Source of the DNA: Mobula hypostoma | Lineage: Eukaryota | NCBI RefSeq assembly: GCF_963921235.1 | Contig: NC_086108.1 | Span: forward strand, 43,712,001-43,776,000 | Direction: 5' to 3' | DNA: 64,000 nt | Shown here: positions 27,121 through 29,592 of the stretch, in pieces | Numbering within the stretch: the first letter of the stretch is position 1 | How the letters are laid out: each line of letters begins with the position of its first letter | Program-made: the position numbers and the translations under genes | The notes under the pieces: model-generated | Seen by the model: only the letters and a program-made list of their open reading frames with translations | Database searches by the model: none | What the model was told of the DNA's origin: nothing

Positions 27121-27341
27121 GTGAGTTATCTCTTTCAAGTCTCCATGGAGCTAAAGTTACCTTGGCTAAAATATAGAAAGCCAGTATGTTTCCTTAATTT
27201 TTGTGTTTGAGTTTTTCTCCAGTTATGTATTGTACTAGACTCTTCATAAAAAATTATTAAATGTCTTGATATGGGTTCTTGCTTTGTTAGATGTCCAGTA
27301 TCAGGTGATTACTGTCTAAAATGCATTCCAACAAATAATTC

Positions 27342-27562
27342 AAACAACAGGAACTCTGCAGATGCTGGAAATTCAAGCAACATACATCAAAGTTGCTGGT
27401 GAACGCAGCAGGCCAAGCAGCATCTATAGGAAGAGGCGCAGTCGACGTTTCAGGCCGAGACCCTTCGTCTGACGAAGGGTCTCGGCCTGAAACGTCGACT
27501 GCGCCTCTTCCTATAGATGCTGCTTGGCCTGCTGCGTTCACCAGCAACTTTGATGTATGTTG
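27342..27562. mobile_element. Miniature PLE fold-back insertion: perfect 92-bp arms (27378-27469 / 27471-27562) plus a 36-nt tail (27342-27377)
   Basis: Arms are exact reverse complements around T27470; 16-bp TSD TTCCAACAA(A/T)TAATTC at 27326-27341 and 27563-27578; near-identical to 3382-3510. Confidence 0.92.
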
Positions 27563-29592
27563 TTCCAACAATTAATTCCTTTTGTTTCATCATCCTCAGG
27601 ACAATGACTGACTAACATGTTCATAGGTCATACAGAAATCTCAGGAAGATTTGATTCAACTCTCCAAGAATGAATAGCTGAATCATAATCTATGTTATTT
27701 TGATGCCTCTTCAGCTCTTTTTCTTTAATCCACCTGTCTAGTCTAATATTGAATGCTGACATATTGCTATCTCAGCTAGAAAGCCTGAAAAATGCTATCT
27801 ATCATCTGAAGAATTATATTGTCCCTTCCTTAAACTTATTCTTACAACCTTGCAATACATGTTTATCTTAATCATTTTCCTGTGCTCTCTCCCACCCTTC
27901 CATAATGTAATATAATTTTGCTATATTTTCATATTTTTCATTTGATCTGGAATGTGCTCCCTGGCCCATCAACCTGTGCCAGTTCTCAGCCCACTCCTTT
28001 CAGCCCCATTCCTCCAGTTATTTCCCTAAAATCTATTATTTTGCAGCCCATCAGCTCCATCATTTTCCTGTTGCCCACCTGTGCTAGAGGGCTAGTATTC
28101 ACCCACCAGCATGTCTTTTAGAAGTAGGAGGAAACCAGAGTACTTGGAAGTAAACCTCATTGTCACAGGGAGACTGTATTCAAGGTCAAGATAAAGCTCG
28201 AGTCCCTGGAGCTCAGTTTTACTGCATAATCCTGCTGAGTAAATTACTGCATAATGATACAGTGTATCTGTACTTACTTTTCTCCAAACAAGCCAACATT
28301 CTAATAAATCTGTATTTTACTCTTCTTGAAACCTGTTTCTTTCCTGCGTTAGGAAGGATATTGTACCTGAACTCTGCATTCTGGTTGAGATTTTATGATT
28401 AATTAAACAATGTTGTGCAAAATTTTGTAAACAGAATTGAGTAAACAAATAATTATTTAGATAAATTAACTAATGTTTGGCATCCATTGTATGAGTTTTG
28501 GGGAACTGCTGCATTTTGTGCTCTGATGCCGTACTCCACAAGGTGTCATCAAACACTGTTTACAAAAGCCCAGTGAAGGACATTGGCACATTTGAGCTTT
28601 CCGTGTGTTTGAGAGGATCCTGAGCTTAGTGAAATGTTAATGCAGTCCATGAGGTGCAAATATCAAAGTGGCTTAGATTTTCATTTTTTGCAGGCCACTG
28701 AATGAGTTTATGAAATGTGAATCGATATCAAACTATTAGCATTGAAAGCCTAGTTATATGTAAGCAATGCAGTTTGACTGAGGTATTGGTAAGGTGGGTG
28801 ATGTGAGCTAATCATAACTTAGTGCCTTAAGCAGAAATGGAAGTAATTGTATTTTAACTACTATATTTGGAATATTTTGTTGGAAGAGCCAAGTAGTATG
28901 TGATTTGTAGACAGCGATTTCAAGCATATTTTAAATAGTAATTTTGTGCAAGTTTGAAGGTTAGATCAATCATTCTTCTCATTCTCTATTTTTAATTTGA
29001 GAGAAAGATGCGTAAATGAAACATGCAGTTCTCTTCTGTACAGCTCTTTAAACTCAAGGAATAAAGCGTCTCAACTTGGATGCAACTATGAATTGCTTGC
29101 CAGTTTATTACACAAAAGCTGCAGCAGCAACCTAGTGCTTAGCTTTCCTGTTGGTGGCGCTTTGGTCAAGTTAGAGGTTTCATACTACGTGGAAAAGTAA
29201 TTCAATTTGTATCCGTATCATGGTGAAATATCAACAGAGTGAATTGGGATCATTACCTTTTGAGGTGCATTTCACTGTTGAATTCATTATTTGCTTATGC
29301 TGGCTATATGATCAGTTATGGGCAGTGCTGATTGCCTGTCTCTTGCACTCACCTTTCCCCCCGCCCCCACACCCCCTCATAAACTCACAATCACTTGGTT
29401 TGTTGAATTATCTAATTACTGACATTCCTGTTAACCATTATCTTAGGAAGCTATTGACCAGGTATTGGTTTATCAGTTTTGGTGACATCTAGAACTCTTA
29501 AATTATGTAACTGCAGCAGCTCATTAGCAATTTTCTTTCAATGTATGTTACAGATTTTACAATTATAAATTCTGTGTTTTTTTTCTGTACAG

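What the first reader, a model, noticed from the sequence alone, without database searches (positions are those of the whole stretch)
27326..27578. Perfect 185-bp palindrome whose axis lies in the hammerhead catalytic core, ~220 bp downstream of exon 6
Seen: 92-bp exact arms around a single T (CCCTTCGTC-T-GACGAAGGG), a 36-nt one-sided tail and a 16-bp TSD. Both arms share private variants (CCAAGCAG, AGAGGCGC) that differ from the 1986-3475 copy, so both arms derive from one template or were homogenised. The + strand keeps CUGACGA but loses stem I; the - strand reads CAGACGA. Inference: a MITE-looking hairpin element generated by retrotransposition, where reverse transcription stalled or snapped back at the ribozyme. 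It is cruciform-prone in DNA and a perfect shRNA-like hairpin in the pre-mRNA.
Basis: partly seen in the sequence, partly recalled or inferred. Interest (0 to 1): 0.75.

Follow-up and report, generated by a model that had tools for sequence, protein, structure and literature searches.

The report
Head-to-head Penelope retrotransposon stub
This perfect hairpin in a zinc-transporter intron is the stub of a Penelope-type jumping gene laid down as two short head-to-head copies, a known shape; such stubs often stop just in front of the element's ribozyme motif, likely because the element's RNA begins there and not because the ribozyme blocks copying.

Summary
In detail: 92-bp exact arms around one T, a 36-nt tail on one arm, and a 16-bp target duplication with one mismatch. 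It is the 3' end of a very abundant Penelope-like retrotransposon; a longer copy carries a GIY-YIG endonuclease. Inverted arms, junction palindromes, a one-sided 30-40-bp tail and a duplication are all published for this class. It is not a MITE, and one of the two 'private' variants is the family majority.

The location is probably not chance. In a related family from other assemblies, 12 of 26 copies chosen without regard to inversion end at -10 to +2 of the hammerhead core (rate ratio about 32; 15 per locus). The peak lies 31-32 nt behind a TATATAAA box. The likely cause is cDNA running off the RNA's 5' end, followed by trimming or fold-back, and not a stall at the ribozyme. No start site was mapped.

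In this window's family the evidence is weaker: 3 of 10 other elements end there, and the TATA-like word is poor. No reads were laid on the locus. Unchecked notes of this scan report the same clustering in this genome and a shark.

The parts
27326..27341 (+). Left target-site duplication, 16 nt
   Evidence: chance test
27342..27377 (-). 36-nt one-sided Penelope 'tail', the stretch between the two 3' end points of the family
   Evidence: matches the tail of the 1986-3511 copy with 1 difference; tail described in PMC8557442, PMC3846280, PMC11167929
27378..27469 (-). Tailed arm: pLTR 3' end whose 5' end is at G5 (+2) of the hammerhead core
27470..27470 (+). Unpaired centre; reads as U4 of the core on the + strand
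27471..27562 (+). Tail-less arm: pLTR 3' end starting at C3/U4 of the core (C27469 is shared by both arms)
27469..27500 (+). Remnant minimal hammerhead: core, stem II, GAAAC-GUC cut triplet and 3' strand of helix I; 5' strand of helix I missing, buried in the long hairpin
27563..27578 (+). Right target-site duplication, 1 mismatch to the left
26932..27120 (+). Host exon: His-rich loop of a ZnT7/SLC30A7-like gene; the element lies in the next intron
1986..3511 (.). Longer two-armed copy of the same family (arms about 955 and 530 nt, one tail, 14-nt TSD); junction far from the ribozyme, with a 6-bp fold-back at 2930-2945
2377..2944 (-). C-terminal piece of the element's ORF: Cys-rich linker and GIY-YIG endonuclease (Neptune-type)
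   Evidence: (PF01541 23.5 bits, cut-off 22.6)
3345..3384 (+). Intact upstream context of the core in the long copy: weak AT-rich box at -36, then a pyrimidine run with CAG/TAG just before helix I; reads as initiator or as 3' splice site
   Evidence: function inferred
43811..43969 (.). Older two-armed relative; one arm ends at +4 of the core, the other near +59; 13-nt TSD
36863..37038 (.). Old two-armed relative; arms end near -5 and +11; no TSD found
32829..32928 (+). Old single-armed relative ending near -2, with a 12-nt TSD (score reached by 4 of 300 random pairs)

Best explanation
The palindrome is one recent insertion of the 3' end of a Neptune-type Penelope-like retrotransposon, present as two short head-to-head copies with a tail on one and a target duplication around both, and its junction lies at the hammerhead core likely because the cDNAs ran off the 5' end of the element's RNA, which is predicted to start 4-8 nt before the core. 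Steps: (1) the endonuclease would nick both target strands 16 nt apart (inferred from the TSD; two-strand cutting is shown in vitro for a lizard element). (2) Each nick would prime cDNA at one of two internal start sites 36 nt apart, giving one tailed and one tail-less arm (start sites shown in vitro for that element; inferred here). (3) On a transcript that begins just before helix I, the start sites near its 5' end would give run-off cDNAs of about 100 and 135 nt (inferred). (4) The ends would be trimmed by a few bases or fold back, and join over 0-3 nt of microhomology at the C-U-G of the core (inferred). The product is a dead copy: the ribozyme lacks helix I.
For: Family identity: GIY-YIG domain in the long copy; 83,441-254,874 contig records laid in 4 of 4 runs. 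Published layout. One tail per two-armed element: 5 of 5 in the window, read by eye, the two oldest less certain; in the related family 16 of 33 two-armed loci have exactly one tail, 0 have two, 6 none detected, 11 undetermined. Either arm can be the longer one (5 tail-less, 4 tailed, 7 equal), which fits two primed cDNAs. Hot zone: the related family (endonuclease 44% identical; PF01541 28.4 bits) was sampled by a 29-nt word that does not select for inversion. There 12 of 26 copies end at -10..+2, 7 end further up and 7 run off the fetched DNA; rate ratio 32, p about 1e-11; one arm per locus 7 of 23, ratio 15, p 5e-6. Of 82 arms in 55 palindrome-selected loci, 81 end at -10..+2, with the peak at -7 (16). 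TATATAAA starts at -39, 31-32 nt before -8/-7, with CCAAT upstream. The finding's own centre, TC-(A/T)-GA, recurs in 3 of 59 long-armed loci from other families. In vitro, shortening the RNA's 5' end shortens the product and ribozyme mutants insert normally (PMC11167929).
Against: No transcription start was mapped in either family. In the window's family the AT-rich box at -36 is weak and one of 4 such words in 300 nt. The finding's arms end 4-10 nt short of the predicted start, so trimming must be assumed. In-window clustering alone is not convincing: 4 of 14 other arms, p 0.07-0.002; 3 of 10 elements, p 0.22-0.014, depending on the assumed length decay. None of the 15 joints shown out of 1,253 is a strand change, and the tool left some uncounted. 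The strong statistics come from another family, with 22 of 23 loci from one assembly. That sample cannot see ends downstream of +2, and the palindrome-selected sample cannot see junction gaps over 30 nt. In D. virilis Penelope the promoter is TATA-less and the start lies about 120 nt before helix I, with an intron ending there, so the geometry is not general.
Confidence: 0.6

Rival explanations
1. Reverse transcriptase stalls at the folded or protein-bound hammerhead and snaps back.
For: Junctions do cluster at the motif. A second peak at U4 (+1; 12 of 82 arms) is the landing site of fold-backs. The lizard protein assists ribozyme folding in vitro. The native RNA can form a hairpin whose loop abuts the core (the region folds no better than shuffles, z 0.05).
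Against: The peak is at the 5' edge, after the enzyme has copied the partner strands; stops are expected at the 3' edge (recalled). The peak follows TATA spacing in the related family. Ribozyme mutants give products of the same size in vitro. One folded-back cDNA does not explain both the tail and the central T unless a 9-nt loop was also lost.
Confidence: 0.15
2. The RNA end comes from splicing: an intron in the pLTR ends at helix I, and cDNAs stop at the splice junction or at a lariat branch.
For: In D. virilis the intron ends at the 5' end of helix I. In the window's family a TACT(C/A)AC word, a pyrimidine run and CAG/TAG precede the core; the TACTAAC allele holds 37-95% of depth (place 2100).
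Against: The related family has the same hot zone with no AG there. The finding carries no upstream-exon sequence at its junction. The whole pLTR strand is pyrimidine-rich.
Confidence: 0.1
3. In this species 5' truncation is random, and this copy happens to have joined at the core through a 1-3-nt microhomology.
For: 2 of 5 two-armed elements in the window join 430-860 nt upstream. In-window statistics are weak. No strand-change joint is among the 15 of 1,253 shown.
Against: 3 of 10 other elements in the window also end there. Loose ends pile at -4 in 3 of 4 runs, although a sister family diverges at the same place. The related family has a strong hot zone.
Confidence: 0.1
4. Self-priming on an antisense RNA template (model of Arkhipova et al. 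2013), with the tail clipped from one arm.
For: Published for palindromic PLE junctions. In the finding and in 2 other window elements the tail-less arm is the longer one, as this model would give.
Against: There is no such polarity in the related family (5 vs 4, 7 equal). In vitro both strands are extended on a sense template. The model does not say why ends cluster at this place.
Confidence: 0.05
5. A MITE-like palindrome that moves as a unit, or an assembly fold-back artefact.
For: Three loci of the related family (L036, L119, L130) share one junction with different flanks. No reads were laid on the finding's own junction.
Against: Asymmetric ends with a 36-nt tail, a 16-nt TSD with a substitution, and different junctions in all five two-armed window elements. 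Four runs of the source sample hold 0.98-0.99 of 171 sampled words of 26700-28400 (not independent support).
Confidence: 0.04

Closest known systems
Endonuclease-bearing Penelope-like elements with an inverted 5'-truncated pLTR, tail and TSD (Arkhipova et al. 2013, PMC3846280; Craig et al. 2021, PMC8557442; passages read)
   Same: Head-to-head arms, palindrome at the junction, 30-40-bp tail on one side, target duplication, frequent 5' truncation.
   Different: Here the whole insertion is two 92-nt arms with no ORF; the TSD is 16 nt (8-10 nt in the rotifer cases read); the passages read do not report junctions piling at the hammerhead's 5' edge.
PAc Poseidon element of the green anole in vitro (Frangieh et al. 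2024, PMC11167929; parts 1-2 of 4 read, supplements not seen)
   Same: Two internal start sites that define the tail, both strands cut and extended, hammerhead about 100-140 nt upstream of the start sites and dispensable for insertion.
   Different: Different clade (Poseidon vs Neptune-type linker here); 5' junctions and natural RNA 5' ends were not treated in the parts read.
[quoted passage not shown]
   Same: CUGANGA core, extra base before stem II, palindromic minimal helix III, 4-5-bp helix I; pairs on opposite strands 100-700 bp apart already noted.
   Different: In the finding the two motifs overlap at the core and helix I is lost, so neither can fold.
Non-LTR retrozymes (bioRxiv 10.64898/2026.07.22.740005; part 1 of 5 and passages read)
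   Same: Hammerhead-bearing, non-coding derivatives of PLE ends.
   Different: Retrozymes are head-to-tail tandems with complete ribozymes; this is head-to-head with a broken one.
L1 twin priming and retroviral strong-stop DNA (recalled, not read)
   Same: Two primed cDNAs joined by microhomology; a short cDNA that runs to the RNA's 5' end.
   Different: L1 inversions copy two different parts of the RNA, whereas here both arms copy the same part. Strong-stop DNA is tRNA-primed and is transferred, not inserted as such.

Membership tests
EN+ Penelope-like element | C-terminal GIY-YIG endonuclease in the family's ORF | tested here: met
   Long copy, 98% identical over the arm, carries PF01541 at 23.5 bits vs cut-off 22.6
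EN+ Penelope-like element | Telomerase-like reverse transcriptase domain | not tested
   No copy in the window reaches it; no full-length copy was fetched
EN+ Penelope-like element | pLTR with minimal hammerhead | tested here: met
   Intact motif at 3377-3412, 2074-2084 and 14732; Rfam gave no hammerhead hit; cleavage not assayed
EN+ Penelope-like element | Inverted 5'-truncated partner, 30-40-bp one-sided tail, TSD | tested here: met
Neptune clade | Cys-rich Zn-finger-like linker (CX2-5CxxC) before the endonuclease | tested here: met
   Seen in the translation against the description in PMC8557442; Nematis shares the linker
Neptune clade | Placement in an RT tree | not tested
   No RT sequence at hand
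MITE | Symmetric terminal inverted repeats at both ends | tested here: not met
   36-nt extension on one end only
MITE | Many copies of the same internal structure, related to a DNA transposase family | tested here: not met
   All five two-armed window elements have different junctions; the parent encodes GIY-YIG; genome-wide count of this junction not available
Non-LTR retrozyme | Head-to-tail tandem units each with a complete type-I hammerhead | tested here: not met
   Head-to-head, helix I missing
miRNA/shRNA precursor | Processed small RNAs from the hairpin | not testable with these tools
   Rfam mir-3926 match of 52 bits is below its 82-bit cut-off and reflects the perfect stem

The most novel reading that the evidence does not exclude
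Neptune-type Penelope elements start their RNA at the outer edge of hammerhead helix I and routinely make a short run-off ('strong-stop-like') cDNA from the start sites near the RNA's 5' end; the stub-sized single and palindromic insertions across distant animals are these intermediates frozen into the genome, which maps the element's transcription start from DNA alone and may explain how pseudo-LTRs form.
Probability: 0.5. Interest if true: 0.65.

Novelty: new member of a known kind. Interest (0 to 1): 0.42.

Why it matters
The copy itself is an ordinary, dead Penelope stub. What matters is where such stubs stop. How Penelope elements build their tandem and inverted ends is called an open question in PMC8557442. 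A sharp pile-up of 5' ends at a predicted transcription start, seen in a related family and hinted at here, gives a direct test: map RNA 5' ends, or move them in the existing in vitro system, and see whether the junctions follow. It also shifts the ribozyme from cause to bystander for these palindromes. For the host, such insertions put perfect 90-bp hairpins into introns; whether these are edited, diced or affect splicing is untested.

Tried and rejected
No whole genome was held, so no genome-wide histogram for this species. Family-specific patterns found nothing in viral, metagenome or prokaryote collections, nor did the related family's word in viral contigs. No RNA holder was listed for the locus. 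Rfam: no hammerhead family hit; the miRNA hits are below threshold. The bacterial promoter/terminator scan is irrelevant to a vertebrate intron. The sequence look-up among earlier findings gave one unrelated note, and a word look-up for the transcription-start idea gave none. Rejected: homogenisation of arms (older elements' arms differ); the ribozyme cut site as the axis (cut after +27, axis at +1). The tail step crashed and was redone; one printed label was off by one and positions are taken from the letter table. Of the 117 loci, 58 with arms under 25 nt were left out of the gap count; many look like chance matches or native motifs.

Full report
Observation. The palindrome is as described: arms 27378-27469 and 27471-27562 are 92 nt and exact, around T27470, and no other exact hairpin in the window has an arm over 12 nt. 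A 36-nt extension (27342-27377) lies on the left arm only. A 16-nt direct repeat with one mismatch flanks the unit; 0 of 300 random zone pairs reached its score. The unit lies about 220 nt behind a His-rich exon that matches human ZnT7; other ZnT7-like exons lie on the same strand. The exon number is recalled, not tested. The hairpin is predicted to be very stable as RNA and as DNA, as any perfect 92-bp stem would be.

One detail is wrong. The AGAGGCGC base is shared with the 14732 copy and is the majority allele in 4 of 4 runs (67-94% of summed depth); the long copy carries the minority base. The single-template conclusion still stands, because the arms are identical while older two-armed relatives differ at 4 of 35 and 12 of 51 aligned bases, so arms are not kept alike after insertion.

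What it is. The arms are the 3' end of a family whose long copy (1986-3511) encodes a Cys-rich linker and a GIY-YIG endonuclease: a Neptune-type Penelope-like element (PLE). No reverse transcriptase was reached, so the clade rests on the linker. The family is very abundant: 83,441-254,874 contig records were laid per run in three organisms (not a copy number). The layout is published. Craig et al. (PMC8557442, passages) describe an inverted 5'-truncated copy and a 30-40-bp tail at one end. Arkhipova et al. (PMC3846280, passages) describe head-to-head pLTRs with palindromes at the junction, a tail and TSDs, and explain them by self-priming. Frangieh et al. (PMC11167929, parts 1-2 of 4) show two internal start sites that define the tail, extension of both strands, and no need for ribozyme cleavage. 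Cervera and De la Pena (PMC4209133, parts 1-2 of 4) define the minimal hammerhead and note pairs on opposite strands. The window holds five two-armed elements, each with one tail as read by eye and each with a different junction. This is not a MITE and not a retrozyme tandem.

Is the junction position special? Positions are relative to C3 of the core. The finding's arms end at 0/+1 and +2; the cut site is after +27. In the window, 4 of 14 other arms end at -10..+11 (3 of 10 elements; a fifth old arm at 55204-55340 is uncertain), and two elements join 430-860 nt upstream. By itself this is weak: p 0.22-0.014 per element under assumed length decays. Laying contigs on the long copy showed 15 of 1,253 joints, none a strand change, and loose ends piled at -4 in 3 of 4 runs; a sister family diverges at the same place, so truncation cannot be told from divergence there.

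A generic pattern for inverted hammerhead cores returned 117 metagenome loci from 4 of 64 parts of the collection. Of these, 59 have arms of 25 nt or more, 41 in one family and 18 in others; 5 have a gap of 0-1 nt, and 3 (L106, L113, L117) have the same TC-(A/T)-GA centre as the finding. In the large family 81 of 82 arms from 55 loci end at -10..+2, with peaks at -7 (16), +1 (12) and -6 (11); no two of these loci share flanks. This sample sees only junction gaps up to 30 nt.

A second scan with a 29-nt word that does not select for inversion gave 23 loci and 26 copies (22 loci from one assembly). The family is a close relative: its endonuclease is 44% identical to the window's. Twelve copies end at -10..+2, two at -14 and -16, five at -290 to -451, and seven run off the fetched DNA: rate ratio 32, p about 1e-11; counting the longest arm per locus, 7 of 23, ratio 15, p 5e-6. 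Ends downstream of +2 are invisible to this scan. The uncut copies show CCAAT and TATATAAA upstream, the latter starting at -39, that is 31-32 nt before the peak. That is the usual spacing of a TATA box to a transcription start (established knowledge, recalled). A common junction is an arm that ends at -7 joined to one that starts at U4/G5, as expected if a run-off cDNA folds back over one base pair. Of 33 two-armed loci, 16 have exactly one tail, none has two, 6 have none detected and 11 are undetermined; either arm can be the longer.

Mechanism. The best reading is two target-primed cDNAs, one from each start site, that run to the RNA's 5' end and are then trimmed or folded back and joined. 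Family, layout and clustering in the related family are shown; the transcription start, the run-off and the joining step are inferred. In the window's family an AT-rich word at -36 lies 32 nt before the first base of helix I, the same spacing, but it is weak and one of four such words in 300 nt. The same stretch also reads as a 3' splice site, and in D. virilis an intron ends at helix I and the TATA-less start lies about 120 nt upstream (PMC2377424, passages), so splicing remains a rival here, though the related family has no AG at its peak. A stall at the ribozyme is less likely: the ends lie beyond the motif's 5' side, and ribozyme mutants give unchanged products in vitro. A pure snap-back of one cDNA needs an extra loop loss, because the central T belongs to the tail-less arm. 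Fold-back does happen in this family: the long copy's junction holds a 6-bp self-copy.

Novelty. The element is a new member of a known kind. I found no paper that reports PLE junctions piling at the hammerhead's 5' edge or run-off cDNA in PLEs (searches; open-licence library only). The older reviews by Arkhipova were not read, and the coverage plots in the supplements of PMC11167929 were not opened and may bear on this. The bioRxiv retrozyme preprint (part 1 of 5 and passages) does not treat palindromes in what I read. Unchecked notes of this scan report the same clustering in this genome and palindromic stubs in a shark; I took the phrase 'outer edge' from one of them, and they are not independent support.

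Limits. Reality of the palindrome rests on the TSD, the tail, recurrence of the layout, and 0.98-0.99 of sampled words held in four runs of the possible source sample. Interest 0.42: an ordinary copy that points to a testable, apparently unreported step of Penelope replication.

Noticed in passing
window 3355-3384 and 14706-14735 (+): Branch-point-like word, pyrimidine run and CAG/TAG directly before the hammerhead core, in the same direction as the host gene and inside its introns; could act as a cryptic splice acceptor. The TACTAAC allele is 37-95% of depth.
   Followed up: partly
window 44460-45690: Old two-armed element of the same kind with arms of about 550 nt (61% complementary near the centre) and one tail.
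   Followed up: partly
window 37492-37810: Unrelated imperfect 320-bp palindrome (79% self-complementary), perhaps an old DNA-transposon-derived MITE.
   Followed up: no
window 14491-14510: The single-armed 14510 copy has a short duplicated word at its 5' junction and an 8-nt TSD candidate, suggesting a template jump.
   Followed up: no
window 2050-2084 and 1994-2080 (joints): Some genomic copies repeat exactly the 35-nt hammerhead unit (3 of 4 runs), and one joint at depth 210 in one run leaves the sequence exactly at C3.
   Followed up: no
L118-L140: Two assemblies titled as bacterial MAGs carry 23 loci of an animal-type Penelope family (22 in one), pointing to host DNA in those bins.
   Followed up: partly
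L004, L053, L055, L062, L068, L069, L087: A hammerhead family whose copies share a fixed 15-nt palindrome centred on U4 with the same upstream sequence, as if a fold-back junction had become part of a propagating subfamily.
   Followed up: no
L036, L119, L130: Identical perfect junction at a native TCGA word with different flanks: recurrent joining or a propagated palindrome.
   Followed up: partly
window 24853-24942: Tailed single-arm relative that starts roughly 7-15 nt downstream of the ribozyme cut site.
   Followed up: no
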